Source of the DNA: Spirochaetia bacterium
GTDB lineage: Bacteria; Spirochaetota; Leptospiria; Turneriellales; JAOUOS01
Direction of reading: 5' to 3'
Length of the DNA: 41,383 nt
Assembly (NCBI GenBank): GCA_029880285.1
Contig: JAOUOS010000030.1
Location: 1 to 41,383 of the forward strand
Shown: one piece after another, positions 14,728 through 32,974 of the stretch
Layout of the letters: every line of letters begins with the position of its first letter
How positions within the stretch are numbered: the first letter of the stretch is position 1
Made by a program: the position numbers and the translations under genes
The notes under the pieces: model-generated
Database searches by the model: none
Told to the model about the DNA's origin: nothing
Seen by the model: only the letters and a program-made list of their open reading frames with translations

Positions 14728-14754
14728 TAAACTTTTTTTAAAATAAGACGATAT
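14728..14754 (+). promoter_or_regulatory. sigma-28 (FliA)-like promoter candidate upstream of flgB: TAAA-N15-GACGATAT
   Basis: Read from the sequence. It matches the TAAA-N15-GCCGATAA consensus at 4/4 plus 6/8 positions, and ends ~10 nt before the AGGT RBS and the flgB ATG (14765). Confidence 0.3.
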
Positions 14755-14764
14755 AGGTAAAGAT

Positions 14765-15199: not shown

Positions 15200-15215
15200 A
15201 AGAAGGTAAATAAAT

Positions 15216-15671: not shown

Positions 15672-15724
15672 AAGTATATAAAAATTAATTGACAGGATAT
15701 TGATTATATAGTAGGAGGAATAAT

Positions 15725-16066: not shown

Positions 16067-16071
16067 TGTTA

Positions 16072-16098
16072 AAAAAATATAAAAAATATAAAAAATAT
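16072..16098. repeat. tandem repeat (AAAAAATAT)x3 in the fliE-fliF spacer
   Basis: Read directly from the sequence. Confidence 0.6.
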
Positions 16099-16141
16099 AT
16101 TCATAGGGAACTTGGGGAAATTTTTATAAAAAGAGGCCCCC

Positions 16142-17824
16142 ATGCCAGATTTCAAAAATTTATTTGAAAGTATTAAAGAAACATTTAATAAGTTAGAGAC
16201 AACGCAAAAAATAATTGCTGGTGCCGTTTTAGGCACTGTTGTTGTGGCTTTGGTGTTAGTGGCGACTGTTTCATCAAAAGAAAGCAGGGTTGCCTTGTTT
16301 GAAGGCATCAGTACAAAAGAATTCGCAGAAGTAACCGCGAAACTTGAAGAATTGAACTATTCGTTTACAACTTCAGGTACAGAGGGAGTGTTTGTTTCAG
16401 CTGATAAACGTGATGAAATCATGATGAAGCTGGCGCAGGAAGGCATGATTCCCAAAGGTGTTGCCGGCTGGGAGCTTTTTGACATAGATAAGTGGTCAGA
16501 AACCCAGTTTGAAAAAGATATAAAAAAACAAAGAGCCCTAATGGGCGCTATCTCAAAAACATTATCTACTTTAAAATCTGTAAGTGAAGCGACAGTTAAT
16601 ATTGCTTTTCCCGAAGAAGCGTTGTTTGAAGAAAGATTAGAACCCGCAAGCGCTGCTGTTTTACTGAAATACACTCCGGGGGTAGATAAACTCACAAGAA
16701 GAGAAATAGAAGGGATTGTTACTTTAGTGAGCCGTTCTGTTCCGGGATTAAAAAAAGAAAATGTGTCTATCGCTGGCCCAGATGGTGAAATATTGAATGA
16801 TTATGACAATGAAATAGACAAAGAAAAGTGGGAGCTAAAAGCAATTTCAGAGAGACTGAAAATACAAGAAAAAGAAAGGGTTAAGCTATTAACTGATATA
16901 AAAAATTCATTAAATTCTTTTTATGGTAATGATAGAGCTGATATTGTAAGGCTTGAGATAAAAATGCGATGGGATAAAGAAGAAATTGAAAAAACAGAAG
17001 TTGAACCTGTTGTAATGATACCAGATGATCCGAAAACTCCCTATTCTGAACTTCAGGTCAAAGACTCTCTTGAAGTTTCTTCAAAAGTAACATCAGAAAA
17101 GTTTGAAGGTAATGGATTTACTCCAGAGGGTCCGGCCGGAACAGAGCCAAATATCCCTCCCGGTTATAAAGATAAAGATTATCAAAAAGCAAGATACGAA
17201 AAAACAGAAAATATAAAAAATAATGAATTTAATAAAACAAAAAGAAAAATTGATAAACAACCATGGGAAGTAGAGAAAGTAAATTTAGCGGTTATACTTG
17301 ACGGCAGGTGGGAAAATGCAGGTGAAAAGGAAGATGAATCTGGATATAAAAGAAAATATGTATCTGTGAGTGATGATGAGCTAAGAAATGTTCAAGATTC
17401 TCTAAAAAAAGCAATTGGGTTTGATTTGTCTAGAGGCGATCAAATTTCTGTAAAACATATTCAAAAAGATCGTTCGAAAGAGCATGAAAAAGAAGATGCG
17501 GCTCTTAGAAAAAGTAAGATGATAAGAAGACTTCTTTTGGTAGGCTTAATTTCATTTTTAGTAATATTTTTAGCGTTTGCTGTTTATCACGGCATAAAGC
17601 GTGAGATGGAAAAACGACGACGATTAAGAGAAGAGGAACTAGCCGCGCAGCAGCAAATGATGCGAGAAGCCGCGTTACGAGCTATTGAAGAAGAAGGTGT
17701 AGAGGTCGAAATGTCTCTTGAAGAAAGAGCAAGAAAAGAAATGCTTGAAAATGCGATTAATTTGGCCAAAGAAAGACCTGAAGACGTGGCCCAACTATTA
17801 AGAACATGGCTGGCAGAAGAATAA
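16142..17824 (+). CDS. fliF: flagellar M-ring protein FliF
   Basis: The ORF is 560 aa. It has N- and C-terminal TM helices, FliF ring-building motifs, and a charged C-terminal tail that would bind FliG. A GAGG RBS is present. Confidence 0.9.
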   Translation: MPDFKNLFESIKETFNKLETTQKIIAGAVLGTVVVALVLVATVSSKESRVALFEGISTKEFAEVTAKLEELNYSFTTSGTEGVFVSADKRDEIMMKLAQEGMIPKGVAGWELFDIDKWSETQFEKDIKKQRALMGAISKTLSTLKSVSEATVNIAFPEEALFEERLEPASAAVLLKYTPGVDKLTRREIEGIVTLVSRSVPGLKKENVSIAGPDGEILNDYDNEIDKEKWELKAISERLKIQEKERVKLLTDIKNSLNSFYGNDRADIVRLEIKMRWDKEEIEKTEVEPVVMIPDDPKTPYSELQVKDSLEVSSKVTSEKFEGNGFTPEGPAGTEPNIPPGYKDKDYQKARYEKTENIKNNEFNKTKRKIDKQPWEVEKVNLAVILDGRWENAGEKEDESGYKRKYVSVSDDELRNVQDSLKKAIGFDLSRGDQISVKHIQKDRSKEHEKEDAALRKSKMIRRLLLVGLISFLVIFLAFAVYHGIKREMEKRRRLREEELAAQQQMMREAALRAIEEEGVEVEMSLEERARKEMLENAINLAKERPEDVAQLLRTWLAEE

Positions 17825-17931
17825 ACTTTGACATGAAAAAGAGTATAATATATAATTATATTAGGCTGAATGATAATGATAGAAAAAAAAGATAAAAAAT
17901 TTAATATTATATTAAAAAAATGGAGTAATAT

Positions 17932-18945
17932 ATGGTAGGTAAACAATCAGATATGAGCGGCAAACAAAAGGCCGCTATATTTTTATTGGCTGTTGGAGCT
18001 GATGTATCATCGGAAGTTATGAAAAAATTAGCTGAAGCTGAAGTTGATACATTGACATATGAGATTGCTCGTTTAGAGAAAGTTACTCCTGATGATAAAG
18101 AACGAGTGCTTCAAGAATTTCAAGAGCTGATGATGGCCCAGGAATTCATTACAAAAGGTGGTATTGATTCTGCGCGTGGAATTCTTGAAAAAGCTTTGGG
18201 AACGCAAAAAGCTATTGATATTATTAACAGACTAACAAGCTCTCTTCAGGTGAGACCTTTTGATTTTGTCAGAAGGCAGGATCCCAGTCATTTATTAAAC
18301 TTCATACAAAATGAGCATCCACAAACCATAGCGCTTATAATTTCATATTTAGATCCACAAAAATCTTCTTTTATTATATCAAGTTTACCGCATCAGATTC
18401 AAGCTGATGTGGCTAGAAGAATTGCAAAAATGGATAGGACATCTCCTGAAGTTCTTCGAGAAGTAGAAAGAGTATTAGAAAGAAAGTTATCTACGTTATC
18501 TAATGAAGATTATGCTTCTGCGGGTGGTATTGATGCTGTTGTAGATATATTAAATAATGTAGATAGAGGAACAGAAAAAAGTATTATAGAAGCTCTTGAA
18601 GAGGAAGATCCAGAATTAGCTGAAGAAATAAAGAAAAAAATGTTTGTATTTGAAGATATAGTACTTCTTGATGATAAAGCTATTCAAAAAACTCTTCGTG
18701 AACTTGATAATCAAGATTTAGCTAAGGCCTTAAAAGCGGTAGATACTGAAGTTCAAGAGAAAATTTTTAGAAATATGTCTAAAAGAGCCGCGGCGTTATT
18801 AAGAGAAGATATGGAATTTATGGGACCGATACGATTAAAAGATGTTGAAGAAGCGCAACAGAAAATTGTAAATATTATACGAAAACTGGAAGAAGAAGGC
18901 GAGATTGTAGTAGCAAGAGCCGGTGAAGATGAGCTTGTTGTGTAA
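17932..18945 (+). CDS. fliG: flagellar motor switch protein FliG
   Basis: The ORF is 337 aa. It has 'GKQKAAIFLLAVGADVSSEVMKKL' and the C-terminal torque helix 'MSKRAAALLREDMEFMGPIRLKDVEEAQQKIVNIIRKLEEEGEI'. Confidence 0.9.
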   Translation: MVGKQSDMSGKQKAAIFLLAVGADVSSEVMKKLAEAEVDTLTYEIARLEKVTPDDKERVLQEFQELMMAQEFITKGGIDSARGILEKALGTQKAIDIINRLTSSLQVRPFDFVRRQDPSHLLNFIQNEHPQTIALIISYLDPQKSSFIISSLPHQIQADVARRIAKMDRTSPEVLREVERVLERKLSTLSNEDYASAGGIDAVVDILNNVDRGTEKSIIEALEEEDPELAEEIKKKMFVFEDIVLLDDKAIQKTLRELDNQDLAKALKAVDTEVQEKIFRNMSKRAAALLREDMEFMGPIRLKDVEEAQQKIVNIIRKLEEEGEIVVARAGEDELVV

Positions 18946-18962
18946 TTAAAAGGGAAATTTAT

Positions 18963-19886
18963 ATGGCAAAAATATTATTTAAATCAAAAGAAGCAGATAT
19001 ACAAAAAGAACCAATTATAATTGATCTTCCTGACAGATATAAAAAACACCAGCAGTTTGATGAACTTTCAGAATTTGAGTTAGACTCTGAGGGTAATGTT
19101 ATTGAACAGTATACCGGCCCGTCAATAGAAGAAATAGAGGCTGAACTTGAAAGATATAGGGACGAAACCGAGCAAAATATTAAAGACAGGCAAAAAAACG
19201 CCGAATCTAGGGTTAATGAAATTATTGAAAACGGTAAAGCTGAAGCCTTTAGATTAATTCAAGAAGCAAAAGAGAAAACAAAAAAAGAAGATGAATCTGC
19301 ACGTTCAAGATCAGACCAGATAATAGAAAGAGCTAAACTTGAAGTAGAAAAAATGATTAAAGAAGCAGAAATGCGGGTTTCAGATATTGAACATGAGGCC
19401 TATCAAAAAGGTTACAACGCGGGTAGAGAAATGGGTTACAGGGAAGGTCAGGGAGAAGTAAAAAGGCTAATTGATAGATTAGGTACAATATTAGGTCATG
19501 CCATTGATGTTAGAGAACAGGTGGTTAAAGAGTCAGAAAAACAAATGGTTGAGATGATCTTAATAATTGCACGAAAAGTAATTAAAGATGAAATAATTGA
19601 AAGAAAAGAAGTTGTTATTAATAATATCAGAGAGGCGTTAGCTAAAATAAAAGATCGTGACCGAATTGATATTAGGGTAAATTTTACAGATTTAGAACTA
19701 ACAACGGCGCATAAAGATGAAATAATTAAAATGATGGAATCATTAAGAAAAGTCAATATATATGAAGACTCAAGGGTAGATAGAGGCGGTGTAATTATAG
19801 AAACAGATGTTGGAGCGATTGACGCTAGAATTTCAACTCAGCTTAAAGAAATTGAAGAAGCAATAAGAAACGCTAAGCCATTATGA
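18963..19886 (+). CDS. fliH: flagellar assembly protein FliH
   Basis: The ORF is 307 aa and lies between fliG and fliI. It has an N-terminal charged coiled coil and a C-terminal FliH/YscL-like domain. Its stop overlaps the fliI start (ATGA). Confidence 0.7.
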   Translation: MAKILFKSKEADIQKEPIIIDLPDRYKKHQQFDELSEFELDSEGNVIEQYTGPSIEEIEAELERYRDETEQNIKDRQKNAESRVNEIIENGKAEAFRLIQEAKEKTKKEDESARSRSDQIIERAKLEVEKMIKEAEMRVSDIEHEAYQKGYNAGREMGYREGQGEVKRLIDRLGTILGHAIDVREQVVKESEKQMVEMILIIARKVIKDEIIERKEVVINNIREALAKIKDRDRIDIRVNFTDLELTTAHKDEIIKMMESLRKVNIYEDSRVDRGGVIIETDVGAIDARISTQLKEIEEAIRNAKPL

Positions 19887-21259
19887 TAGCAAAAAAAATT
19901 GTAAAACCTGTTAACTATCTTGAAAAATATCGAAATTTGGTTGAAAAAACCGAGACGATTAGATCGCTGGGAAGTGTTGTAGAGGTTACAGGTAAAATAA
20001 TTTTATCTAAAGGTCCTGAGGTTCAAATTGGAGAATTATGTCACATTGAAAAAATTGAAGACGAAGCATATATTTTATCAGAAGTAGTAGGATTTAGAGA
20101 TGATTTTGTCGTTTTATCGCCATTAGAAAATATAGCGGGAATATATCCGGGAAGCAGAGTTCTATCTACAGGGTCTCCCTTAAAAGCATTTGTTGGTGAT
20201 GAATTAATGGGACGTGTAATAGACGGTCTTGGAAGACCTCTGGATAACAAAGGCAGCCTAATTGCCAGTGAAAAAAGAAGTTTATATAATAATCCTCCCA
20301 ATCCTCTTGAAAGACCATTAATAAGAAAAGATCTGACTACAGGTATAAAATCAATTGATTCATTTTTAACTATGGGCAAAGGACAGCGTATTGGAATATT
20401 TTCTGGTTCTGGCGTGGGTAAAAGTACGCTTATGGGAATGATTGCACGTTATAGCAAGGCCGATATTAACGTAATAGGGTTAATAGGAGAGAGAGGAAGA
20501 GAAGTAAGAGAATTTATAGAAAATGAACTTGGCGAGCAGGGGATGAAAAAATCGGTAATTGTGGTTGCTTCATCTAATGACAGTCCCATGCATAGAATTA
20601 GAGGGGCCTATATGGTTATTACTATAGCTGAGTATTTTAGAGATAAAGGAAAAGATGTTCTTTTAATGATGGATTCTCTAACTCGTTTATCAATGGCACA
20701 AAGAGAAGTGGGTCTTGCTGCGGGAGAGCCTGCTACAACAAAAGGTTATCCGCCTTCTGTATTTAGTATGCTGCCTGAGCTTGTAGAGCGTGCGGGTAAT
20801 GCTAAAACAGGAAGTATAACAGGTATTTATACTGTGCTGGTAGAAGCCGATGACTTAAATGAACCAATTGCAGACGCGGCAAGAGGTATATTAGATGGTC
20901 ATATTGTTTTATCCAGAAAATTAGCGGGCAGGGGGCATTATCCAGCTGTAGAAATAGTAGAGTCTGTAAGCCGAAGTATGCCGTTTGTAACAGACGAAAA
21001 TCATTATAAAGAAGCTGCTAAATTAAGAGAATTATTAGCTGAATACCAGGAAAATGAAGAGATAATTAATCTTGGCGCATACGTAAGAGGGGCAAATTTA
21101 GTGTTAGATAAAGCAATACAGCTGAAATCTGATTTTGATAGTTTTTTAAAGCAGGGCATTAATGAACATTCTACAAAAGAAAATACATTAAATAATTTAA
21201 AGAGAATTTATGAAAAAACCATAACTGTTAAAGAGTCAGGCGCAAAAAGACTTAGATAA
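19883..21259 (+). CDS. fliI: flagellum-specific ATPase FliI
   Basis: It has Walker A 'GSGVGKST', Walker B 'VLLMMDSLTR', and an F1/T3SS ATPase fold. Confidence 0.95.
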   Translation: MIAKKIVKPVNYLEKYRNLVEKTETIRSLGSVVEVTGKIILSKGPEVQIGELCHIEKIEDEAYILSEVVGFRDDFVVLSPLENIAGIYPGSRVLSTGSPLKAFVGDELMGRVIDGLGRPLDNKGSLIASEKRSLYNNPPNPLERPLIRKDLTTGIKSIDSFLTMGKGQRIGIFSGSGVGKSTLMGMIARYSKADINVIGLIGERGREVREFIENELGEQGMKKSVIVVASSNDSPMHRIRGAYMVITIAEYFRDKGKDVLLMMDSLTRLSMAQREVGLAAGEPATTKGYPPSVFSMLPELVERAGNAKTGSITGIYTVLVEADDLNEPIADAARGILDGHIVLSRKLAGRGHYPAVEIVESVSRSMPFVTDENHYKEAAKLRELLAEYQENEEIINLGAYVRGANLVLDKAIQLKSDFDSFLKQGINEHSTKENTLNNLKRIYEKTITVKESGAKRLR

Positions 21260-21264
21260 AGAAA

Positions 21265-21711
21265 ATGAAAAAATTTAAATTTAAGCTGGAACCGTTTTTA
21301 AAACTTAAAAAATTAGAAGAAAAAAATAAAATGGTAGAACTTTCAAAAGTAGCTCAAGAAGCAGAAAACCAGCAGATAGAAATAAATAATTATTATGAAA
21401 AATCAGGAATATTGCTTTCTGAAGAAGCTATAAAAATGCGAGAGGGTATATTTGACTTATCATATCAAATTATAATGCAGAATTATTTTTATAATATGAA
21501 GAAAAGAAAAGAAATCGCAGAAAGAAAAATGTTAGAAATTGAAATGAGATTAAAAAAGAAACAAGATGAAATGATTATTGCAAGAAAAAATCGCAGAGTA
21601 ATAGAAATAATTAAAGAAAAAAAGTGGGAAAATTACTGTTATGAAACGGGTCGAGAAGAGATACAATTGTTGGATGAACAATATAATAGAAAGAAAGTAA
21701 GACTTTCATAA
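21265..21711 (+). CDS. fliJ: flagellar export chaperone FliJ
   Basis: The ORF is 148 aa and all coiled coil. It starts 'MKKFKFKLEPFLKLKKLEE' and lies immediately after fliI. Confidence 0.6.
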   Translation: MKKFKFKLEPFLKLKKLEEKNKMVELSKVAQEAENQQIEINNYYEKSGILLSEEAIKMREGIFDLSYQIIMQNYFYNMKKRKEIAERKMLEIEMRLKKKQDEMIIARKNRRVIEIIKEKKWENYCYETGREEIQLLDEQYNRKKVRLS

Positions 21712-21723
21712 TAGGAGAGAAAA

Positions 21724-21894
21724 ATGAAATTAGGGCTAATTCATGTAAAAAAAGAAAAATATGTTAATAAGTTAAGATATGTTAAAGAAAGTTTTAATAT
21801 ACTTAGAAAAAAAATATTTCGGCTTGAAAAAGAATTAGATAAAATGAGTTTAATATTAAATAGAATAAGAAGAGAAATGTTGGTTAGAGCATAA
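21724..21894 (+). CDS. small basic coiled-coil ORF (57 aa) not in ORF track; hypothetical flagellar-operon micro-protein
   Basis: It runs from the ATG at ~21724 to TAA ~21894 and reads 'MKLGLIHVKKEKYVNKLRYVKESFNILRKKIFRLEKELDKMSLILNRIRREMLVRA'. It fills the fliJ-flbB gap on the same strand. Confidence 0.3.
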   Translation: MKLGLIHVKKEKYVNKLRYVKESFNILRKKIFRLEKELDKMSLILNRIRREMLVRA

Positions 21895-21899
21895 AAATT

Positions 21900-22571
21900 A
21901 TGTCAGATAGAAAAATAGCCATATTGTTAATGCTTACAATCTTGTTTTTTTCAGGAGTGTTTGTATTTGTTCTTGATATGATGGGCATAATTCAAGCGGC
22001 TGATTATCTGACATTTTTAAGACCTAAAAATCCCCCCGTATCAAGTGACATGGAATTACCATCAGAAGTTGAAAAAGTTAGTTTTCAAAAATGGGAAGAA
22101 AAACTTATAGAAAAAGAAGAAAAACTTGTATCAATGGAAGAAAAAATTAAAGAAAAAACGGACAGTTTAGATCAAAAAGAAAAAGAAATAAAAGAATTTA
22201 TGAACAGTATGCAAAAAGAAAAAGAAAAGTTATATATGATCACAAAAGACTGGGAAGATAGAAAAAAGAAAATTGAAGATATGGCTGGCAAGGTAACCAG
22301 CATGCCGCCGGAAAAAGCAAGAGAAATGATGGAAAACTGGCGTGATTTTGATATAATTGAAGTTTTAAGACAAATTGATAGAACTGCAGAAGAAGAAGGG
22401 ATGGCATCTATCTCTCCTTATTTATTGACATTATTTAATCCCAAAAGAAGAGCAGAGATTACTAGAAAAATGCTTTTACCGCCTTTAGAACAAGAGATGC
22501 CATTAAAATCTGCAGTCAATGAATCAGAAGAAAAAGAAGAAGAAAATCAAGTAGAAGAACCCATACAATAA
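21900..22571 (+). CDS. FlbB/YlxF-like flagellar protein (MgtE_N/MotE-like C-terminal region)
   Basis: The ORF is 223 aa. It has an N-terminal TM helix, a Lys/Glu-rich coiled coil, and a C-terminal 'PPEKAREMMENWRDFDIIEVLRQIDRTAEEEGMASISPYLLTLFNPKRRAEITRKML' that resembles MgtE_N-type repeats. The gene holds the post-fliJ position that YlxF holds in Bacillus and FlbB holds in spirochaetes. Confidence 0.5.
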   Translation: MSDRKIAILLMLTILFFSGVFVFVLDMMGIIQAADYLTFLRPKNPPVSSDMELPSEVEKVSFQKWEEKLIEKEEKLVSMEEKIKEKTDSLDQKEKEIKEFMNSMQKEKEKLYMITKDWEDRKKKIEDMAGKVTSMPPEKAREMMENWRDFDIIEVLRQIDRTAEEEGMASISPYLLTLFNPKRRAEITRKMLLPPLEQEMPLKSAVNESEEKEEENQVEEPIQ

Positions 22572-22623
22572 TAAACAGAATAAATTAATAAAATAATTTA
22601 AAAAAAATATTTATAATTTTATA

Positions 22624-24501
22624 ATGAACAATGATTTTTTAAAAAAAGCATCTGCTAATTTAAATTATCTTGAAAAAGAAAATTGTTTGTATTATGACAC
22701 AAATTATGATATCAAAAATAAAATTATAAATATAAAATCATTTTCTGGGAATATTGAAAATGAAAATCATTTTACTTTTCAAAAAAATAATGTATGGTAT
22801 CACTCAAGAAAAGACCCCTATAGAGAAGCAAAGAGGCAGTTGCATGGTATAATTGATAAAAATAAAAATACAAAGCATTTAATATTAATAGGCGCTGGTG
22901 CCGGATATATAATACATGAGGCATTTTTAAATAATGATATAGAATCAATACTTTTAATAGAACCAGATTTAGAAGTGCTGGTATACTTATTAAATTTAGT
23001 AATTATTCAAGAAATAATTAAAGAAAAAAAATTATATATATATTTTCCTGAGAACATAAATATTATAAATTTAGAACCCATATTACCTTTTATTAAAGGC
23101 AAAAAAGTGGAAACTATATCAATTTTTACTCATCCAGCATCTTATCAGGCTTATTCAAGTTTATATACAAAAGTACAAGATAAGATGGCCAATTTAATTG
23201 AAAAAAGAGCCGTAAATCAGGCAACTTTAATTAAATTTCAAGATATATGGAACAAAAATATAAGTTTAAATATTAAAGAAATAATTTTAGGCGAAAAATT
23301 AATAAACATAACGAGTAAAATCAAAACAGAAAATATTGTAATCGCCGGGGCGGGTCCATCATTGTCTGAAAGTTATGAAGAGTTAAAAAAATATAGAAGT
23401 AATTTTTTATTAATAGCAGCAGATACGGCTTATATTCCATTAATTAAAAATAATATTATTCCTGATATTGTTATAGCCGCTGATCCTCAGTGGTTAAATC
23501 ATTATTATGTATTATCAAAAGAAGTAAAAAAGTCAATTTGGATATTAGATCCGGTTGTTTGTCATGTGATACCTCATTTTCTAATAGCCAATGGGTGTAC
23601 GATGATATGGTGGGATAATCCATTTTATATAGATCAAATAATAAGAAATCATTATGGCGATAGAGGTGAAATTGCACACGGAGGTTCAGTAACAACAAAT
23701 GCCTTTGATTTAGCGGTTAAATTTAAGGCAAGAAATATTATATTAACGGGACAAGATCTATCTTTTTCTAATAAAACCGCCCATGTAAAAGGATCCGTTC
23801 TTGAAAATATGATATATTATAAAATGAATAAATATAAAACAATAGAAAATCATAATTTAAAGCAGATGAAGGCCTTACCGGCATTAAAGGTAACATCAAT
23901 AAAAGATAATAATATTTTTACAAACGCTAAATTAAAGGTTTTTATTGAATGGTTTGAAAATCAAGCAAAAATATATAATAGCGGGGACAATATAATAAAT
24001 TTATATAACGCCACAAAAAATGGTGTTAAATTAAAGGGTTTTATTTATAAAGATATATCTGAGATATTTACAAATGATAATGAAAGATTAAAAGTAAATT
24101 TAGATATAAATAAAGAAAATGTAATACATGAAAATTTAGAATTGAAAATAAAAAATAAATTAGAATTAATATTATTTGATTTTAATATGCTTGAAAAATT
24201 ATATATTGAAAATATAAAAATGTTATTTGAAGCAAAAAGAAATCCTGTAAAAGAAAAGATAAAATCTTTAATTTCTAAAATAACAGCTAATGATGAAAAA
24301 ATAAAAAAATATAACGAGGCCAACCAGATACTTTCTATAGGGGCTCAGCATACAATTCTTGAAATTACAGAGGGATCCAATTCTGCTTTTAATGATGATG
24401 GCACCATTTTTTATAAGGCAATGCTTAAAACTTGTAAAAGAACAAGATATTTATTTAAAAAAATGATTCATATATTATCATTTATGCATGTTCCAGGTTA
24501 A
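22624..24501 (+). CDS. Maf-like motility accessory factor (DUF115 / MptE-like domain); putative flagellin nonulosonic-acid glycosyltransferase
   Basis: The ORF is 625 aa, which is the usual Maf size. Its central 'NIVIAGAGPSLSESYEELKKYRSNFLLIAADTAYIPLIKNNIIPDIVIAADPQ' matches the DUF115 G-x-GPSL...PD...D signature. It lies directly downstream of the flagellar block. Confidence 0.6.
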   Translation: MNNDFLKKASANLNYLEKENCLYYDTNYDIKNKIINIKSFSGNIENENHFTFQKNNVWYHSRKDPYREAKRQLHGIIDKNKNTKHLILIGAGAGYIIHEAFLNNDIESILLIEPDLEVLVYLLNLVIIQEIIKEKKLYIYFPENINIINLEPILPFIKGKKVETISIFTHPASYQAYSSLYTKVQDKMANLIEKRAVNQATLIKFQDIWNKNISLNIKEIILGEKLINITSKIKTENIVIAGAGPSLSESYEELKKYRSNFLLIAADTAYIPLIKNNIIPDIVIAADPQWLNHYYVLSKEVKKSIWILDPVVCHVIPHFLIANGCTMIWWDNPFYIDQIIRNHYGDRGEIAHGGSVTTNAFDLAVKFKARNIILTGQDLSFSNKTAHVKGSVLENMIYYKMNKYKTIENHNLKQMKALPALKVTSIKDNNIFTNAKLKVFIEWFENQAKIYNSGDNIINLYNATKNGVKLKGFIYKDISEIFTNDNERLKVNLDINKENVIHENLELKIKNKLELILFDFNMLEKLYIENIKMLFEAKRNPVKEKIKSLISKITANDEKIKKYNEANQILSIGAQHTILEITEGSNSAFNDDGTIFYKAMLKTCKRTRYLFKKMIHILSFMHVPG

Positions 24502-25941
24502 AATGGTTTCTCTGGCTGCTTTTACTTCGTCTAATTTTCTAACAAAAGTGTGACAAGGAGCGTTCTTTATATCATTAGGATTTTTTTCTATGGTTTCAAA
24601 AATATCTTTGACTGCTTCTACAAAAGCATCCATTTCTTGCTTTGTTTCAGTTTCAGTAGGTTCGACCATTATAGCGCCGGGAATATGAAGAGGGAAAAAT
24701 ACAGTGGGAGCGTAAAAACCCCGATCTAAAAGAGCTTTGGCAAAATGCATTGTAGTAAAATCTTTATTTTTTAAGGTATTATGATTAAAAACAGATTCAT
24801 GAAGTACCGGCAGATCAGATGAAATTTTTAAATATTTTTTAAGTTTTAATTTCAAATAACGGCTGTTTAGTACGGCTCTTTCTGTCATTTGATTTATATT
24901 GCTTCCAAGTGTTTTTACGTATGCCCATGCTCTTACAATAACCCCAAATTGACCATAAAAGGCTTTCATATATCCTATAGATTTTTCCGGAATATAAAAT
25001 TCATAGAATTCAAGATTGTCTTTGTAAATTTTTCGAACATGGGGCGCTGGTAAATAAGGTTTCATTCTTTCAGAGCAAACTAAAACTCCCTGTCCCGGTC
25101 CGCCGCCTCCATGAGGTGTAGAAAAAGTTTTATGCATATTTAGCTGACTTAAATCTACTCCCATTTTTTCAAATGAAACTTTGCCGGCCAAAGCGTTTAA
25201 GTTGGCTCCGTCTACAAAGAGAAGCGCTCCTTTTTTATTTAAAATTTCTTTTATTTTTATAATATTTGTTTCAAAAATACCCTGCGTATTAGGATTTGTT
25301 ATCATCAATGCCGCAGTGTCTTCAGTTGTTAAATTAGAAAGAGCGTCAAGATCAGTTAATCCATCTTCAGTAGAAGGAACTTTGGCAATATTATATCCTA
25401 CCATTGCCGCCGAAGCAGGATTTGTTCCATGAGCTGAATCGGGAATTAAAATAGTCTTTCGCTTTTCATTTTTATTATTAAAATAAGCATTAATCATATA
25501 AACACCGGCGAGTTCTCCGTGCGCACCTGCGGCTGGTAATAAAGTGGCAGCAGGTAAATCTACAATTTTTTCTATCATATTTTGTGTTTCATATAATAGT
25601 TTCAAAGCGCCCTGAGTATGTTTTTCGCTTAAACCGGGATGTAAGTTCACAAAAATTTCATTTGCAGATAATTTTTCGTTTATTATAGGATTATATTTCA
25701 TAGTACATGAACCAAGAGGATACAAACCGTCTTCCCAAGCGTAATTTTGTTTTGATAAACGCGTAAAGTGTCTTACCAGTTCAATTTCAGATAAATGAGG
25801 AAAAAGCTTAGCAGGTTTTCTTATTTTTTGAAGGGCAGGATGTTTCGATTGAGAATTTCTTTCATATTCAACTTGTTTTTTTTCACAAATCTCATTTAAT
25901 ATGGGTTCTTTTCGAATTGGTATAGATGATAAATTTAACAT
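24478..25941 (-). CDS. gcvPB: glycine dehydrogenase (decarboxylating) subunit 2, PLP-dependent
   Basis: The ORF is 487 aa. It has 'LYPLGSCTMKYNP' and 'LSQLNMHKTFSTPHGGGGPGQGV' (PLP lysine region). Its 3' end overlaps the Maf gene 3' end by 24 nt, with the two genes convergent. Confidence 0.9.
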   Translation of the reverse strand: MLNLSSIPIRKEPILNEICEKKQVEYERNSQSKHPALQKIRKPAKLFPHLSEIELVRHFTRLSKQNYAWEDGLYPLGSCTMKYNPIINEKLSANEIFVNLHPGLSEKHTQGALKLLYETQNMIEKIVDLPAATLLPAAGAHGELAGVYMINAYFNNKNEKRKTILIPDSAHGTNPASAAMVGYNIAKVPSTEDGLTDLDALSNLTTEDTAALMITNPNTQGIFETNIIKIKEILNKKGALLFVDGANLNALAGKVSFEKMGVDLSQLNMHKTFSTPHGGGGPGQGVLVCSERMKPYLPAPHVRKIYKDNLEFYEFYIPEKSIGYMKAFYGQFGVIVRAWAYVKTLGSNINQMTERAVLNSRYLKLKLKKYLKISSDLPVLHESVFNHNTLKNKDFTTMHFAKALLDRGFYAPTVFFPLHIPGAIMVEPTETETKQEMDAFVEAVKDIFETIEKNPNDIKNAPCHTFVRKLDEVKAARETILTWNMHK

Positions 25942-26058
25942 ATAAAGACGATTTTTTTATTTAAATTAGGTTGAAAAGTAAAATGTAAAAATAAAGATAA
26001 AATCAGGTTGACGGCTGATTTTATCTTTTTAAGTGCTATTCATTAAAATTAAATAAAT

Positions 26059-26823
26059 ATGAATATTGAAAAAGAAATTAAATTTGAAGGTGATAGTAAA
26101 GATTTAATCTGGCGGCATCCATCCGATATATTTGCCTTGGGGCATGAAATTAAAGTTAATGAAAGTCAAGAAGTGGTTTTCTCAAAAAATAATGAGGCAC
26201 TAGATGCTTTTAGGCAGGGTACACATGAATTAAGCATAAAATTATTTCCTATAATGAAAAAGACTTTGCCTGAAAAAGTTGAAAAAAATATGATATTTAC
26301 TGCAACGGCATGGTTTATAAATATAAAAATTTTTAATAGAAAAAGATGGGGCACTTTAAAAGATTTTGAAGTAATAGAACCAAAGTATGGAACAATGGTT
26401 CCCATAAAAGCATTTGGAGAATATACTATAACAGTAAATGACAGTAGAAAGTTTATTCAAAACTTTGTGTTAAAATATCACACGTATGATACATCTACGG
26501 TTGAAAAAAAAATACAGGAGATAATAATACAAAAAACACAAAAATCGATAGAAGAAACTTTAAATGCCGGAACAATAGATTTATTAAACTTATTAAATGA
26601 AAACGAAGAAATATCAAAATTAGTAAAACAAAATTTAATTTATGATTTTAATGAGTTAGGCATAGAGTTTAATAATTTTAGCCTAGAATCTATAACTATT
26701 GCTAATGAAAATAAAACAATTTTAAGATTAGAAAATAATTTAAAAGATAAAGAATTAATTGATAACATACGTTTTAATTACGTTAAAGAATATCTTAAAA
26801 ATATAATTGAAGAATATAATTAA
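26059..26823 (+). CDS. SPFH/Band-7 family protein (YdjI-like subfamily)
   Basis: The ORF is 254 aa. Its N-terminus 'IKFEGDSKDLIWRHPSDIFALGHEIKVNESQEVVFSKNNEALDAFRQGTHEL' matches the conserved start of this SPFH subfamily. Confidence 0.55.
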   Translation: MNIEKEIKFEGDSKDLIWRHPSDIFALGHEIKVNESQEVVFSKNNEALDAFRQGTHELSIKLFPIMKKTLPEKVEKNMIFTATAWFINIKIFNRKRWGTLKDFEVIEPKYGTMVPIKAFGEYTITVNDSRKFIQNFVLKYHTYDTSTVEKKIQEIIIQKTQKSIEETLNAGTIDLLNLLNENEEISKLVKQNLIYDFNELGIEFNNFSLESITIANENKTILRLENNLKDKELIDNIRFNYVKEYLKNIIEEYN

Positions 26824-26865
26824 GATTAGAGTATAAAAAAGTATATTATAGGGTAAAAAAATATC

Positions 26866-27837
26866 TTGTTAATGAAGAAAATACATATAAACGAAATAAT
26901 AAAATCAGTTAATAAAAGATTAGAAGAAATTATATTAGATGATCTTCCTGTTTTAAATGATATAAAAAAGTTTGTAATCGAAAGCGGTGGAAAAAGAGTA
27001 AGACCCATAATGCTTTGTTTATTAAATAATATATACAATGGAAATTCAAAAGGGGCATTAGTTTTAGCGGCAATTGTTGAGATTATTCATGCTGCCAGCC
27101 TTTTACATGATGATGTTTTAGATGAAGCCGATACAAGAAGAGGTAAACCCAGCGGGAAAGCTTTATTTGGTAGCAAAACAGTGGTTTTAGCTGGCGACTA
27201 TCTTTTGGCCTGTGGAATTAAAAAATTAAATGAATTTAATAATTCTCAATTGATGTCAATATTCACAAAAGTGATACATGATTTATCTACGGCAGAGCTT
27301 TATCAAATGGAATATGAAAAAAATTCAAACATAACTATTGAAATTTATAATAAAATTATATATGGTAAAACAGCTTCATTATTTCAAGCAGCTTGTGAAT
27401 CTGCCGCTTTATGGTGTAATTTAAAGAAAGAAGAAATAAATAAGCTAAGTATATTGGGTAAAGAAATAGGTATGTTTTTTCAAATTCGTGATGACTATCT
27501 TGATTATTTTAATCCTAAAATTTTAAAAAAAGATCCTTTTCAAGACTTTCAAAGAGGAATCTATACATATCCAATAATTAAAGTAAAAAATAATCAAAAA
27601 AACGGTATAAATAAAAAAATTCATAAATATTTCTTAATGTCTGATAAACTTAGAAAAAATAAAGAAATTCAAAAAGATTTTATGAATTTATTGCATGAAA
27701 ATAACTCGAAAGAAAAAACCCTAAAAGATCTTGAAAAATTAGGTGAGAGTATTTCTTTACGTTTGAAAAACCTTCCTAACGGTATATCAAAAGATTTAAT
27801 GGAAGAACAATTTAAACGCCTATTAAATATAAATTAA
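26866..27837 (+). CDS. polyprenyl diphosphate synthase (trans-IPPS)
   Basis: It has the first DDxxD 'LLHDDVLDEADTRRGKPS' and the second 'FQIRDDYLDYF'. Confidence 0.85.
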   Translation: MLMKKIHINEIIKSVNKRLEEIILDDLPVLNDIKKFVIESGGKRVRPIMLCLLNNIYNGNSKGALVLAAIVEIIHAASLLHDDVLDEADTRRGKPSGKALFGSKTVVLAGDYLLACGIKKLNEFNNSQLMSIFTKVIHDLSTAELYQMEYEKNSNITIEIYNKIIYGKTASLFQAACESAALWCNLKKEEINKLSILGKEIGMFFQIRDDYLDYFNPKILKKDPFQDFQRGIYTYPIIKVKNNQKNGINKKIHKYFLMSDKLRKNKEIQKDFMNLLHENNSKEKTLKDLEKLGESISLRLKNLPNGISKDLMEEQFKRLLNIN

Positions 27838-27842
27838 GAATA

Positions 27843-29501
27843 CTAAAAAAGAATATTTATACCGCCATAACCTTTTATACCAGATGTATGATAGGGAGGC
27901 ATTAGAATATAATTTTGGTTTAGCAAATTTTCGCCTTTTATAAAAAAATTAACAGTAGGATTAATTTCTTTTGTAATAATTAAATTTAATAATGTGTAAG
28001 GTTTAAGCCATGTTTCTGATGTAGTAAAGGCTTTTCTTTTTCCCATAAAAGTTAATTCTAAACTAAATTCCCATGTTCCCGGTCTGAAACTGGATTTTAA
28101 AAAAGAAGCTAAATTTGGTTTTAAATATAGGTTATCAAGATAATAAAATCCCGTAATACCTGTTGAATAAAAAAGATCAGAGCCTAAATTTTGCTCTAAT
28201 TCTAAAGTACCATAAACTTGGCGCAGTACTTTATCATTAAATAAATAAATGCCGTCTAACTGGTATGAAAACTCAAAAAAATGATAATAATATTCATATC
28301 CTGCTTCAATATTCAATGAAGCATTCTTAGAAACAGGAATTCTGTTTTTAAGAGATACTTTATACATATCTTCAGGATTTTCATAGGAAAATAGAGCGGA
28401 ATAAGGAGTGTTAAGAAAAGAATTATAAAACAAAGGAATTTTTGCCTCTCGCTCAAATAAAAGTTTAGAATGCCATTTTCCCCAAAAACTATCTAATACA
28501 AAATAAGGACCAAATACCGATTTCATATCTGCGGCAAAAAAAGATTTGAATCCGGCGGTTATGTTTATTTCCCAAAGAGTTTTATCTTCGCCTATATAAT
28601 TTCTATAAATAGGAAAAATATCCGATACAAAAATTTTCCCGCTACGATATATTTTTTTAGTGTCGCTATAATGAGAATTTAGCTCACCATACCAAAAATT
28701 ACTTAAAACGCTTAAAGAGTTTCTTCTGCCAAAAATATATTGCCAGGATGCCTGCAATTTGCCTTCAGTATAAGAAGAAGAAGATTTAGGCAGAGTTTTT
28801 TCTTCAAGATCAGAGCTGATATAAACTCCATAGAGAGAAATATTTAATTTTTGTGCCTCACTTGGGCGAAATTGATTTTGAACTTCAATATATCCGCCTC
28901 TTTTGAATTGTTTTGAGTATAAACTCGAATTTTGCAGTCCTCGAATATCGTCAATATAATTGGTTTTTAACATTAATTTATAAGCTGTATTTATATTAAA
29001 ATGGCTAACTAAATTTAAATTATCAATAGAAGTTTCAGAATCGCGGTATATAGTTTTCCCGCGGCCCTCAGAGTCTTTTTTTAATCTACCGTATTCTAAA
29101 AGATAAAGACCAAGGTCGTCTCTTTTCGTAACGTATATATCAATGCCTAAAGTAGAGTATAGTCCATATTCACTTTTTATCTGGGCTCTTTTTTCAATTT
29201 TTTTAACTCCCTGTTTTTCTTTTTTTGTAATTTGAGAAGCGTTTTCAGACCATTCGCTTATTTCAGTTTCTTCGGGATTAATAATTTTTGTGCTATCTTT
29301 AGCGGGTTGAAGAATCTTTTCATCTTCGCCTTCTACCACAATTTCTTCTTTTTCTATAACGGAATCTGAAGATTTTTCAATTTCATCATCAATTTCATCT
29401 TCAATTGTAATATTCTTTTTTTGTGGAAAAATATCGCTAGGTAATAAAAAATTAAAAAATAATAGGATTAAGAAAACATATAATGAATATGAATATTTCA
29501 T
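27843..29501 (-). CDS. putative outer-membrane beta-barrel protein with acidic N-terminal region
   Basis: The ORF is 552 aa. It has a signal peptide, then a ~90-aa Glu/Asp-rich low-complexity stretch, then a long region of alternating hydrophobic residues. It ends in '...GGINILF' with a C-terminal Phe, typical of OMPs. Confidence 0.5.
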   Translation of the reverse strand: MKYSYSLYVFLILLFFNFLLPSDIFPQKKNITIEDEIDDEIEKSSDSVIEKEEIVVEGEDEKILQPAKDSTKIINPEETEISEWSENASQITKKEKQGVKKIEKRAQIKSEYGLYSTLGIDIYVTKRDDLGLYLLEYGRLKKDSEGRGKTIYRDSETSIDNLNLVSHFNINTAYKLMLKTNYIDDIRGLQNSSLYSKQFKRGGYIEVQNQFRPSEAQKLNISLYGVYISSDLEEKTLPKSSSSYTEGKLQASWQYIFGRRNSLSVLSNFWYGELNSHYSDTKKIYRSGKIFVSDIFPIYRNYIGEDKTLWEINITAGFKSFFAADMKSVFGPYFVLDSFWGKWHSKLLFEREAKIPLFYNSFLNTPYSALFSYENPEDMYKVSLKNRIPVSKNASLNIEAGYEYYYHFFEFSYQLDGIYLFNDKVLRQVYGTLELEQNLGSDLFYSTGITGFYYLDNLYLKPNLASFLKSSFRPGTWEFSLELTFMGKRKAFTTSETWLKPYTLLNLIITKEINPTVNFFIKGENLLNQNYILMPPYHTSGIKGYGGINILF

Positions 29502-29719
29502 TGATTAATTACTGAAAAATAGATATTATAATAAGTTTTTATTTTTTTAAAATAAATTATATTGTCAATTATAATTATAAAAAAATAGAATTTAATCATG
29601 AATACATAAACCATGCACAAAGAGGCTATAATATCTTTATATTTTTACGAAGAATTATTTAATAAAAAATTTTAAATATAAATATTAATAGTTAAACTCT
29701 ATTATCATGTCAAAAATGT

Positions 29720-30013
29720 TTAAAAAACAGTATGGGTTACTTTTTTATTATATAAAACCCGATTTTTAATATTTTCCATTACCTGTACGGCTTTGTCATA
29801 ATCTCCAGTTTCCATATACTTCAACCCCAATTGAATTGCAACACTACTTGTTTCAATTGATTTCTTTTGTGGATTGTTTAAAACCGATTCATACTTTTTT
29901 TCAAGTTCTTCAATAGATTCTTTTAATAAATTTTCTTGATTAGAAATTGATTCTCCTGAAAAATCAATAATCTGGGTTAAACTATCTTTATTTTGTTGTG
30001 TAGATTCATACAT
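29720..30013 (-). CDS. hypothetical small protein (single TPR-like helix pair)
   Basis: The ORF is 97 aa and has no recognisable catalytic motif. 'AIQLGLKYMETGDYDKAVQVMENI' looks TPR-like. Confidence 0.35.
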   Translation of the reverse strand: MYESTQQNKDSLTQIIDFSGESISNQENLLKESIEELEKKYESVLNNPQKKSIETSSVAIQLGLKYMETGDYDKAVQVMENIKNRVLYNKKVTHTVF

Positions 30014-30211
30014 ATCATTTTCCTCACAATTTATTATTTTTCATATAATATTTTTTCGGCTTTTTTTGAAATTTATAAATAATAATTTTATGAATATTAA
30101 AGTAATTATATTTTAAATCATATCTAATCTTAAAAAATATAAAATCTTTAAAATTGAATACGCTTGACAAATAAGTTCTATTTTAGTACATTTTATAAAA
30201 GATATAATAAA

Positions 30212-30946
30212 ATGCTTAAAAATATAATTATAAAACAGGGTCTTTTAAAATCTATATTGTTTTTTACGTTAATTATTGTATTTTTATCAGTTTTAGGTAC
30301 AAGTATAATAACATTAATTTTAACAGGCGTACTACCCGATAAAATAGGTTTTTTTATTTCTACAATCATGCCAGCTATTTTAGTACCATCAGTTGGATTA
30401 TGGCATTTTAAATTAATAATTGAGTTGCATGCGACACAGCAAAAATTATATAAATATTCTTTTATAGATGAATTAACGAATACTTATAATAGACGTTATA
30501 TCTTAGAAATATTACAAAAAGAAATGAGCCGAGCAAAAAGATACAATACGAATCTTTCAATAATGATATTAGATATTGATAATTTCAAGAAAATTAATGA
30601 TAATTATGGGCATCTAGAAGGTGATAAAATGTTAAAGAGATTCGCAGATTCATGTAAAGCGAATATGAGAGATAATGATTATTTTGGAAGATACGGCGGT
30701 GAAGAATTTTTATACATACTAACAAATACTGAAAAAGAAAACGCTGTTTTATTCGCAGAACGACTGCGTGAAATGATAGTAAAGCTTTGTTTAATTTCAG
30801 AAGATAAGAAAATTAGTCTTACAACAAGTATTGGTGTATCAGAATATAAAATAGATACAGATGACTTAGATTCTTTTTTAGATAGAACAGATAAAGCATT
30901 ATATAAAGCAAAAGAAAAAGGAAAAAATTGTGTGTTTGAGTTATAG
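30212..30946 (+). CDS. membrane-anchored diguanylate cyclase (GGDEF, GGEEF active site)
   Basis: It has 'RYGGEEFLYIL' and 'ILDIDNFKKINDNYGHLEGD', with two N-terminal TM helices. The track ORF begins at a TTG (30164) that is itself a TTGACA hexamer. The first ATG, ~30212 ('MLKNIII'), is the more likely start. Confidence 0.85.
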   Translation: MLKNIIIKQGLLKSILFFTLIIVFLSVLGTSIITLILTGVLPDKIGFFISTIMPAILVPSVGLWHFKLIIELHATQQKLYKYSFIDELTNTYNRRYILEILQKEMSRAKRYNTNLSIMILDIDNFKKINDNYGHLEGDKMLKRFADSCKANMRDNDYFGRYGGEEFLYILTNTEKENAVLFAERLREMIVKLCLISEDKKISLTTSIGVSEYKIDTDDLDSFLDRTDKALYKAKEKGKNCVFEL

Positions 30947-31002
30947 AGTAAAAATAAATTATTAACTCTTTACAAAAAATCTAAAAAACCTTTTGTGGCG
31001 AT

Positions 31003-31485
31003 ATGAAAAAAGCAGTTTATCCGGGTAGTTTTGATCCTCTTACTAATGGACATTTAGATATTATTGAACGGTCATTAAAAATTGTAGATCATCTTGTAAT
31101 TTCAGTATTACATAATTCATCAAAAAAATCGTTATTAACACTGGAACAAAGAGTAAAATTAATAAAAGAAGTTACAAGAAATTACAAAAATGTGAGTGTT
31201 CAAACATTTTCCGGGCTTTTAGCCGATTTTTGCAGAGAAAATAAAATAAATATTGTTATGAGAGGCCTGAGGGCCGTTTCTGACTTTGATTTTGAATATG
31301 CGGTTTTTTTAATGAACAGAAACTTAAATTCTGAGCTTGAAACAATATTTTTAATGAGTAACAATGAGCATTCTTTTACTTCATCAACTATTATAAAAGA
31401 GGTTGCCTCTTATGGCGGGAATGTGGCAGACAGGGTACCCGAAGCCGTAAATAAAAAATTAAAAGAAATTTACAACAAAAAATAA
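31003..31485 (+). CDS. coaD: phosphopantetheine adenylyltransferase
   Basis: It starts 'MKKAVYPGSFDPLTNGHLDIIERS', which carries the HxGH motif. At 160 aa it is the right size. Confidence 0.9.
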   Translation: MKKAVYPGSFDPLTNGHLDIIERSLKIVDHLVISVLHNSSKKSLLTLEQRVKLIKEVTRNYKNVSVQTFSGLLADFCRENKINIVMRGLRAVSDFDFEYAVFLMNRNLNSELETIFLMSNNEHSFTSSTIIKEVASYGGNVADRVPEAVNKKLKEIYNKK

Positions 31486-31571
31486 AAAATTATATTAATT
31501 GACAATCATTATAACAATTAGGCTTTACAAATTGATAAAAAAAGAAAAAATATAAATAATCAGGAATATAA

Positions 31572-32957: not shown

Positions 32958-32974
32958 AATATAAAATTTATTTT

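What the first reader, a model, noticed from the sequence alone, without database searches (positions are those of the whole stretch)
22624..24501. Full-length Maf-like (DUF115) protein immediately downstream of the flagellar export/basal-body operon
Maf (motility accessory factor) proteins of ~600-650 aa with a central G-x-GPSL/PD/D DUF115 domain are the candidate transferases that attach pseudaminic or legionaminic acid to flagellins in Campylobacter and Helicobacter. Finding one here, after an flgB-to-flbB block, predicts nonulosonic-acid flagellin glycosylation in this organism. The sugar-biosynthesis genes (pse/leg) are not in the window and should be elsewhere.
Basis: partly seen in the sequence, partly recalled or inferred. 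Interest (0 to 1): 0.6.

Follow-up and report, generated by a model that had tools for sequence, protein, structure and literature searches.

The report
Maf-type flagellin glycosyltransferase gene in a spirochete
The gene is a genuine full-length member of the known Maf family of flagellin sugar-transferases in an uncultured Leptospira-like spirochete, but its position next to the flagellar operon is peculiar to this genome and does not show which sugar it uses.

Summary

- **Context.** In 85 related loci from other Leptospirales genomes, none has these flagellar genes within 10 kb. The closest relative (52% identity) keeps the downstream neighbours but has a nos cluster upstream. Leptospiraceae orthologues follow a class B PBP instead. 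The adjacency is therefore not conserved evidence.
- **Pathway.** No pse/leg/neu genes are in the window or recur near relatives.
- **Donor.** The family is present in all the Leptospira species the search returned, including L. biflexa, where no nonulosonic acid was detected. Yet L. biflexa FlaB is O-glycosylated in cryo-EM maps, and no transferase is named in the papers I read.

Most likely this is the cytoplasmic FlaB O-glycosyltransferase, with the donor sugar unresolved. It is a new member of a known kind, of modest interest.

The parts
22624..24501 (+). maf-like gene, 625 aa, predicted cytoplasmic Maf-family glycosyltransferase
22657..23022 (+). N-terminal Rossmann-like domain (Maf_flag10_N-like), aa 12-133, with invariant G92, G94 and E113
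   Evidence: PF20157 scores 20.1 bits, below the 23.5 cut-off. The family profile aligns this region to 5MU5 residues 106-170. Invariant columns are listed.
23257..23772 (+). Central DUF115/MptE-like (MAF_flag10) catalytic domain, aa 212-383
23347..23364 (+). G242-A-G-P-S-L247 motif. G242 is invariant among the closer homologues only, and A243 is Gly in the TPR-Maf P0091.
23482..23484 (+). D287 codon (AADPQW). It aligns with E324 of M. magneticum Maf, a residue reported as critical for activity.
   Evidence: HMMER alignment to 5mu5. Mutagenesis summarised in 10.1101/2020.06.03.131540. Conserved in Leptospira and C. jejuni Mafs. Codon checked.
23686..23688 (+). S355 codon (HGGSV), the probable equivalent of the conserved Ser required in CbMaf/GkMaf
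   Evidence: The equivalence is inferred from motif position. It was not checked against the CbMaf sequence.
23755..23757 (+). D378 codon (GQDLSF). It aligns with D415 of M. magneticum Maf.
   Evidence: Invariant in both alignments.
24130..24480 (+). C-terminal helical bundle, aa 503-619; presumed acceptor-binding domain
22572..22623 (+). 52-nt flbB-maf spacer, 4% G+C, with no predicted terminator and no obvious Shine-Dalgarno sequence
14765..22571 (+). flgB-flgC-fliE-fliF-fliG-fliH-fliI-fliJ-(56-aa ORF)-flbB operon upstream. Adjacent here, but not a conserved partner of maf.
   Evidence: NCBIfam hits. Absent from the related loci.
24478..25941 (-). gcvPB, convergent, with its 3' end overlapping maf by 24 nt. 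This is the neighbour that is conserved in the closest relative.
   Evidence: NCBIfam NF003346, 583 bits. The same tail-to-tail arrangement occurs in L002/L007.

Best explanation
The gene encodes a cytoplasmic, three-domain Maf-family glycosyltransferase. It is the single-copy orthologue of a protein found throughout the Leptospirales.

Most likely it O-glycosylates Ser/Thr residues on the surface loops of the D1 domain of the FlaB core flagellins. This would happen before FlaB is exported by the flagellar type III system.

The sialyltransferase-like central domain would bind a CMP-activated ulosonic acid. D287 and D378, together with S355, would be the essential active-site residues. The N-terminal Rossmann-like domain and the C-terminal helical bundle would position the flagellin.

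In Leptospira and Treponema such FlaB glycans form most of the contacts between filament core and sheath, so the enzyme would be needed for sheath attachment and motility.

What is shown: family membership, fold, conserved catalytic residues, and distribution across the order. What is inferred: the acceptor (FlaB), the donor class, and the timing. The donor (Pse/Leg-type nonulosonic acid, Kdo or another sugar) is unresolved.

The position behind flbB is a lineage-specific juxtaposition. It may allow read-through transcription, but it is not a conserved operon.
For: **Sequence and fold**
- PF01973 at E 4.4e-32 over the full profile. NCBIfam PseD model aligned over aa 63-571 at E 3.4e-24, as a remote family-level match.
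- The family profile hits M. magneticum Maf 5MU5 at E 3.3e-20 in both the N-terminal and central regions.

**Active site**
- Equivalents of 5MU5 E324 and D415 and of the conserved Ser are present and invariant across the family. Their functional importance is reported in 10.1101/2020.06.03.131540.

**Distribution and literature**
- Relatives are named 'motility associated factor glycosyltransferase family protein' and occur in saprophytic and pathogenic Leptospira. Each of the 80 genomes listed appears once.
- Leptospira FlaB carries O-glycans on Ser/Thr that mediate core-sheath contacts (10.1101/2022.03.03.482903, PMC13518957, PMC13144727).
- T. denticola FlaB carries a nonulosonic-acid derivative (PMC13439194), and T. 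denticola is listed among Maf-encoding species (10.1101/2023.12.03.569772).

**Localisation**
- No signal peptide or membrane segment, which fits cytoplasmic action.
Against: - No biochemical or genetic data exist for any member of this Leptospirales clade in the library searched.
- The gene is not linked to flagellin, flagellar or nonulosonic-acid genes in 85 related loci. In Leptospiraceae it directly follows a class B PBP and signal peptidase I.
- Identity to characterised Mafs is only about 20%. The PseD model scores far below its cut-off, 85 against 670 bits.
- No GlfM-like partner and no TPR domain is present, although these provide flagellin recognition in the Shewanella Mafs.
- L. biflexa has the orthologue but no detectable nonulosonic acid.
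Confidence: 0.6

Rival explanations
1. It is a Maf-fold glycosyltransferase, but its acceptor is not flagellin. It would add a terminal ulosonic acid to another protein or to a glycan, for example a general O-glycosylation glycan, LPS or another envelope polymer. The conserved lepB-PBP-maf arrangement in Leptospiraceae would then reflect an envelope-related role.
For: - In 43 of 85 related loci the gene sits about 200 nt or less downstream of a class B PBP with a PASTA domain. Signal peptidase I, an SLT transglycosylase and a MurA-like (EPSP synthase family) enzyme are also nearby.
- In L. biflexa the PBP stop codon and the maf start codon abut.
- No flagellar linkage exists outside this window.
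- Maf-like enzymes that transfer Pse/Leg onto an oligosaccharide rather than flagellin are reported in Tannerella forsythia (PMC5420450; title and abstract).
Against: - The PBP linkage is confined to the Leptospiraceae group. It is absent from the window's own clade and from the Turneriella group, which has a HAD hydrolase and an 889/903-aa Omp85/POTRA (BamA-like) outer-membrane protein upstream. It may therefore be inherited gene order rather than functional coupling.
- The full three-domain architecture matches the flagellin-specific Maf 5MU5.
- Leptospira FlaB is known to be O-glycosylated, and no alternative transferase is named in the papers read.
Confidence: 0.2
2. It is the FlaB glycosyltransferase exactly. 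It uses CMP-pseudaminic or CMP-legionaminic acid made by pse/leg genes elsewhere in the genome, and it belongs functionally to the flgB operon.
For: - Same family evidence as the best explanation.
- A 52-nt spacer on the same strand with no predicted terminator.
- T. denticola FlaB glycan is a nonulosonic-acid derivative.
- L. interrogans encodes a legionaminic-acid pathway.
Against: - The adjacency is not conserved in any relative.
- Nonulosonic-acid synthesis is patchy in Leptospira whereas this gene is present in every species returned.
- No pse/leg/neu gene lies in the 41-kb window, in the roughly 10 kb beyond its downstream end, or recurrently near relatives.
- The rest of the genome could not be searched.
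Confidence: 0.3
3. It is not a glycosyltransferase. It would be an MptE-like pyrophosphokinase or a SteA-like regulator that merely shares the DUF115 fold.
For: - The Pfam family name is MptE-like.
- PBP neighbourhood in Leptospiraceae.
Against: - The HPPK match covers only the 190-residue central domain of a 625-aa protein, and the sequence match covers only profile positions 209-281.
- The best match by a wide margin is Maf over 502 residues.
- The Maf catalytic acidic residues and the GQDLSF motif are conserved with C. jejuni Maf.
Confidence: 0.04

Closest known systems
Maf glycosyltransferase of Magnetospirillum magneticum AMB-1 (PDB 5MU5)
   Same: - Same three-domain architecture: an N-terminal Rossmann-like domain, a central MAF_flag10/DUF115 domain and a C-terminal helical domain.
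- The acidic residues equivalent to E324 and D415 are conserved.
   Different: - Only 12-13% identity in the structural alignments.
- Domain orientations differ (TM 0.54, rmsd 4.8-11 A).
- The host has external flagella and a maf gene linked to flagellin glycosylation genes. Here the flagella are periplasmic and sheathed, and no sugar-pathway genes are linked.
Campylobacter/Helicobacter/Aeromonas Maf proteins (PseD, PseE, Maf1, Maf4)
   Same: - Similar length.
- Shared motifs: GPSL, PD...D and GQDLSF...H.
- Matched by the PseD model over aa 63-571.
   Different: - About 21% identity, and 85 bits against the 670-bit PseD cut-off, so it is not an orthologue of PseD.
- Single copy rather than a paralogous family.
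- No phase-variable homopolymeric tract beyond the background rate.
- Not embedded in a flagellin glycosylation island.
Leptospira orthologues (for example L. biflexa Patoc P0117, L. interrogans P0178), annotated 'motility associated factor glycosyltransferase family protein' or DUF115
   Same: - Same family, same length class and same invariant residues, at 28-30% identity.
- The organisms have O-glycosylated FlaB.
   Different: The genomic context differs. In Leptospiraceae the order is lepB-PBP-maf. In the window it is flbB-maf-gcvPB(convergent). None has been characterised experimentally in the literature searched.
Shewanella Maf-1 (TPR-fused) and Maf-2/GlfM tripartite systems
   Same: Same catalytic domain family, and a cytoplasmic protein O-glycosylation logic.
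   Different: There is no C-terminal TPR domain and no adjacent small four-helix-bundle GlfM-like gene, either in the window or conserved in relatives. How flagellin would be recognised is therefore unknown.
Archaeal MptE (6-hydroxymethylpterin diphosphokinase, PDB 8SD5)
   Different: MptE is a single-domain protein of about 215-240 aa. Sequence similarity is limited to the N-terminal nucleotide-binding part of the domain (profile positions 209-281).

Membership tests
Maf (motility accessory/associated factor) flagellin glycosyltransferases | Central MAF_flag10/DUF115 (PF01973) domain | tested here: met
   111.6 bits against a cut-off of 34.6, E 4.4e-32, profile positions 2-170 of 171.
Maf (motility accessory/associated factor) flagellin glycosyltransferases | N-terminal Maf_flag10_N domain (PF20157) | tested here: inconclusive
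   [not shown]
Maf (motility accessory/associated factor) flagellin glycosyltransferases | Three-domain fold of the solved Maf (5MU5) | tested here: met
   [not shown]
Maf (motility accessory/associated factor) flagellin glycosyltransferases | Residues required for activity: equivalents of MmMaf E324 and D415, and the conserved Ser | tested here: met
   D287, D378 and S355 are invariant in the family alignments. D287 and D378 align to the 5MU5 residues, and the S355 equivalence is inferred from motif position. Their functional role is taken from 10.1101/2020.06.03.131540.
Maf (motility accessory/associated factor) flagellin glycosyltransferases | Genomic linkage to flagellin and/or nonulosonic-acid biosynthesis genes | tested here: not met
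   In the window the gene follows a basal-body/export operon, not flagellin or sugar genes. No such linkage appears in the other 85 related loci or in the window. This feature is typical of the family rather than strictly defining.
Maf (motility accessory/associated factor) flagellin glycosyltransferases | Transfers a CMP-activated nonulosonic acid to flagellin Ser/Thr | not testable with these tools
   This needs biochemistry or genetics. Only indirect literature support exists, from glycosylated FlaB in Leptospira and Treponema.
PseD (NCBIfam NF050051, flagellin modification protein PseD) | Score at or above the curated cut-off | tested here: not met
   85.4 bits against a cut-off of 670.
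MptE archaeal 6-hydroxymethylpterin diphosphokinase | Single-domain protein of about 220 aa matching over the whole enzyme | tested here: not met
   The protein is 625 aa with three domains. The sequence match to 8sd5 is limited to profile positions 209-281. The fold match covers the central domain only.
Tripartite Maf-2/GlfM or bipartite TPR-Maf-1 systems | An adjacent GlfM four-helix-bundle gene, or a C-terminal TPR domain | tested here: not met
   No TPR hit in Pfam. The neighbours are flbB upstream and convergent gcvPB downstream. No conserved small neighbour was found in relatives. GlfM itself was not searched with a profile.

The most novel reading that the evidence does not exclude
The Leptospirales Maf clade, including this gene, is the long-unnamed enzyme that installs the FlaB O-glycans holding the spirochete flagellar sheath on the core. 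It would do so with a donor other than pseudaminic or legionaminic acid, for example CMP-Kdo or another ulosonic acid made by housekeeping pathways. That would explain why the gene is universal and unlinked to pse/leg clusters, and why it is present in L. biflexa, where no nonulosonic acid was detected.
Probability: 0.2. Interest if true: 0.6.

Novelty: new member of a known kind. Interest (0 to 1): 0.3.

Why it matters
Recent cryo-EM work shows that O-glycans on FlaB make most of the contacts between the core and the sheath of Leptospira and Treponema periplasmic flagella. The glycan chemistry in Leptospira is unknown, and the papers I read name no transferase.

This gene belongs to a single-copy Maf clade present in every Leptospira species the search returned. 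That clade is the obvious candidate enzyme and offers a concrete knockout target, the L. biflexa orthologue.

For this window itself, the result is a correct but routine annotation: a DUF115 protein refined to a Maf-family glycosyltransferase. The caution is that neither its flagellar neighbourhood nor its family name establishes nonulosonic-acid use.

Tried and rejected
- **Direct PDB sequence search.** Searching with the single protein found nothing. A profile was needed.
- **First genome-collection scan.** As a result, NeuB/PseI/LegI genes could not be sought in related genomes.
- **Searching the same genome for sugar genes.** The window lies at one end of a 266-kb contig. Only about 10 kb beyond the window's downstream end could be read, and it held LpxK, a heptosyltransferase, ThiC and a sulfatase-maturase-like gene, with no sugar-acid genes.
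- **Conserved operon with flagellar genes.** Rejected.
- **Promoter and terminator scan.** Uninformative in this AT-rich DNA: 61 promoter-like sites against 60.5 expected. The promoter-like match next to the gene overlaps its start codon.
- **Phase-variable homopolymer tract, as in Campylobacter maf genes.** One A8 run in 1.9 kb, equal to the window background of about 1 per kb. Rejected.
- **Kurniyati et al. 2017 (T. denticola glycan paper).** Not held in the library.
- **Literature on the Leptospira gene.** Searches for a characterised Leptospira Maf/DUF115 protein found nothing functional.

Full report
**Observation**

The ORF reported at 22624..24501 (+) exists. It starts with ATG, the first start codon after the upstream stop, and encodes 625 aa.

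It carries a full-length PF01973 MptE-like/DUF115 domain: aa 212-383, E 4.4e-32, 111.6 bits against a cut-off of 34.6. It also has a sub-threshold Maf_flag10_N match at aa 12-133 (20.1 against 23.5 bits). The NCBIfam PseD model aligns over aa 63-571 but scores far below its cut-off, 85 against 670 bits.

The nine upstream genes on the same strand are flgB, flgC, fliE, fliF, fliG, fliH, fliI, fliJ and the spirochete collar gene flbB. A 56-aa ORF sits between fliJ and flbB.

The flbB-maf spacer is 52 nt at 4% G+C, with no predicted terminator and no obvious ribosome-binding site. The 3' end of maf overlaps the 3' end of a convergent gcvPB by 24 nt.

The remaining genes of the window are housekeeping. 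No non-nested ORF of 100 aa or more matches a nonulosonic-acid pathway family.

**Source organism**

An identical protein is deposited as a DUF115 protein of a 'Spirochaetia bacterium' MAG. The window is the terminal 41 kb of a 266-kb metagenomic contig.

All 80 related genomic loci retrieved come from Leptospirales-type genomes, apart from one contig labelled Caldithrix. They include Turneriella, Leptospiraceae and 'Leptospiria' MAGs. The best match is only 52% identical.

**Family membership**

- A profile of 36 homologues hits the only solved Maf (M. magneticum, 5MU5) at E 3.3e-20. The hit has separate matches in the N-terminal and central regions.
- The AlphaFold2 model is confident, with pLDDT 86.4 and pTM 0.81. 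It shows an N-terminal alpha/beta domain, a long connecting helix, a central alpha/beta domain and a C-terminal helical bundle.
- Foldseek agrees, with E 2.3e-15 to 5MU5.

In the printed HMMER alignment, 5MU5 E324 and D415 correspond to D287 and D378 of this protein. These residues, plus a conserved Ser, are reported as essential in MmMaf, CbMaf and GkMaf (10.1101/2020.06.03.131540). The HGGSV serine S355 is the probable counterpart of that Ser. All three are invariant in the family, and the acidic residues are shared with C. jejuni Maf.

The protein has no signal peptide or membrane segment.

I therefore file it as a Maf-family member. It is not an orthologue of PseD, and it is not an MptE kinase.

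**Genomic context**

The adjacency to the flagellar operon does not survive comparison.

- The closest relative (52% identity, from the same metagenome assembly) keeps the downstream block of convergent gcvPB, Band-7, polyprenyl synthase and a 552-aa unknown. Upstream it has a nosZ-D-F-Y-L cluster instead.
- Other close relatives sit in unrelated contexts.
- I ran tblastn with every window protein against 86 loci (1.44 Mb; 62 loci have at least 5 kb of upstream flank). Apart from the same-genome contig L001, no locus contains a homologue of flgB, fliE, fliF, fliG, fliH, fliJ or flbB. There is one short FlgC-like match in L065, and one match of fliI to a Rho ATPase.
- De novo clustering of neighbours found a different conserved context in the more distant Leptospiraceae group. 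A class B PBP with a PASTA domain lies directly upstream in 43 loci, preceded by signal peptidase I. An SLT transglycosylase, a MurA-like (EPSP synthase family) enzyme, homoserine dehydrogenase and threonine synthase are nearby.
- In L. biflexa Patoc the PBP stop codon and the maf start codon abut.
- The Turneriella group has a HAD hydrolase and an 889/903-aa Omp85/POTRA (BamA-like) outer-membrane protein upstream.
- No sugar-acid biosynthesis gene recurs near maf.

Position behind flbB is thus a feature of this genome only. Co-transcription remains possible but untested.

**What it probably does**

According to the literature, Mafs are cytoplasmic flagellin O-glycosyltransferases that use CMP-activated nonulosonic acids. 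They act before flagellin export (10.1101/2023.12.03.569772; PMC4065374, abstract).

In spirochetes:
- T. denticola FlaB carries a nonulosonic-acid derivative on five Ser/Thr residues of D1 (PMC13439194).
- Leptospira FlaB shows O-linked glycan densities that make most core-sheath contacts (10.1101/2022.03.03.482903, PMC13518957, PMC13144727).
- None of these Leptospira papers names a transferase; 'Maf' occurs zero times in each. Searches for a characterised Leptospira Maf or DUF115 protein found nothing functional.

The clade found here is present in every Leptospira species the search returned, including L. biflexa Patoc, L. interrogans, L. santarosai and L. kirschneri. It appears once per genome in the scan. 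It is therefore the natural candidate for the FlaB glycosyltransferase, and I assign the window's gene that role with confidence of about 0.6.

**Donor sugar**

- Ricaldi et al. detected Kdo but no nonulosonic acid in L. biflexa Patoc, and none in L. santarosai. They also concluded that several leptospires lack CMP-NulO synthetase homologues (PMC3438082).
- Both of those species nevertheless have the Maf orthologue.
- L. biflexa FlaB is glycosylated.
- CbMaf and GkMaf can transfer Kdo as well as Neu5Ac.

Either a flagellin-specific nonulosonic acid escaped detection, or this clade uses another donor. I could not test which, because the rest of this genome and the related genomes could not be searched for NeuB/PseI/LegI.

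**Rival explanations**

- A Maf-fold enzyme with a non-flagellin acceptor is the main rival (confidence 0.2). The PBP-linked context in Leptospiraceae supports it, as do the Maf-like Pse/Leg transferases of Tannerella that act on an oligosaccharide (PMC5420450).
- A non-glycosyltransferase role, MptE-like or SteA-like, is unlikely given the full-length Maf match and the conserved catalytic residues.

**Verdict**

The annotation as Maf-like is correct, and the protein is already deposited as DUF115, with relatives named Maf family. The inference of nonulosonic-acid flagellin glycosylation is plausible but not established, and the flagellar neighbourhood adds little.

This is a new member of a known kind, of modest interest. 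Its main value is to point to a concrete candidate for the unnamed FlaB glycosyltransferase of the Leptospirales.

Noticed in passing
window 21724..21894 (+): A 56-aa ORF lies between fliJ and flbB, with a strong Shine-Dalgarno sequence (aggagag) upstream. It is called as a gene on the independent Logan contig L001 (2971..3141). It has no Pfam hit and may be a small unannotated flagellar operon member.
   Followed up: partly
L087 8189..11887 (L. biflexa Patoc CP000786.1) and 43 of 85 related loci: In Leptospiraceae the maf orthologue lies directly downstream of a class B penicillin-binding protein with a PASTA domain. In L. biflexa the stop and start codons abut. Signal peptidase I precedes the PBP, and an SLT transglycosylase and a MurA-like (EPSP synthase family) enzyme are nearby. 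This order is conserved, its meaning is unexplained, and it is absent from the window's clade.
   Followed up: partly
window 24478..24501; L002 11897..11917: maf and the convergent gcvPB overlap tail-to-tail by 24 nt. The closest relative shows the same arrangement with a 21-nt overlap, so the maf-gcvPB pair is the conserved unit in this clade rather than flbB-maf.
   Followed up: yes
window 1..41383; contigs ERZ27296366:k141_209609 and k141_1354829: The window starts about 15 nt from one end of a 266,099-bp metagenomic contig. The 52%-identical homologue lies on a 201-kb contig of the same assembly, so two related low-G+C spirochetes coexist in that sample.
   Followed up: partly
window 4508..5542 (-) and 5532..6353 (-): This is a fusion of a GmhB-type heptose 1,7-bisphosphate phosphatase domain with an HldE domain II heptose 1-phosphate adenylyltransferase domain. 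It overlaps a fructosamine-kinase-like gene by 11 nt. It belongs to an ADP-heptose (LPS core) pathway and is not a nonulosonic-acid gene.
   Followed up: partly
window 27843..29501 (-) and 33834..34736 (+): A 552-aa ORF and a 300-aa ORF have no Pfam or NCBIfam match. The 552-aa ORF is conserved next to the polyprenyl synthase gene in the closest relative (L002/L007).
   Followed up: no
[not shown]
   Followed up: no
window 22897..22965 (maf aa 92-114): The N-terminal domain has an invariant GxG...E pattern (G92, G94, E113). It shows weak sequence and fold similarity to class I SAM-dependent methyltransferases and spermidine synthase, which suggests a nucleotide-binding Rossmann ancestry for Maf_flag10_N.
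   Followed up: no
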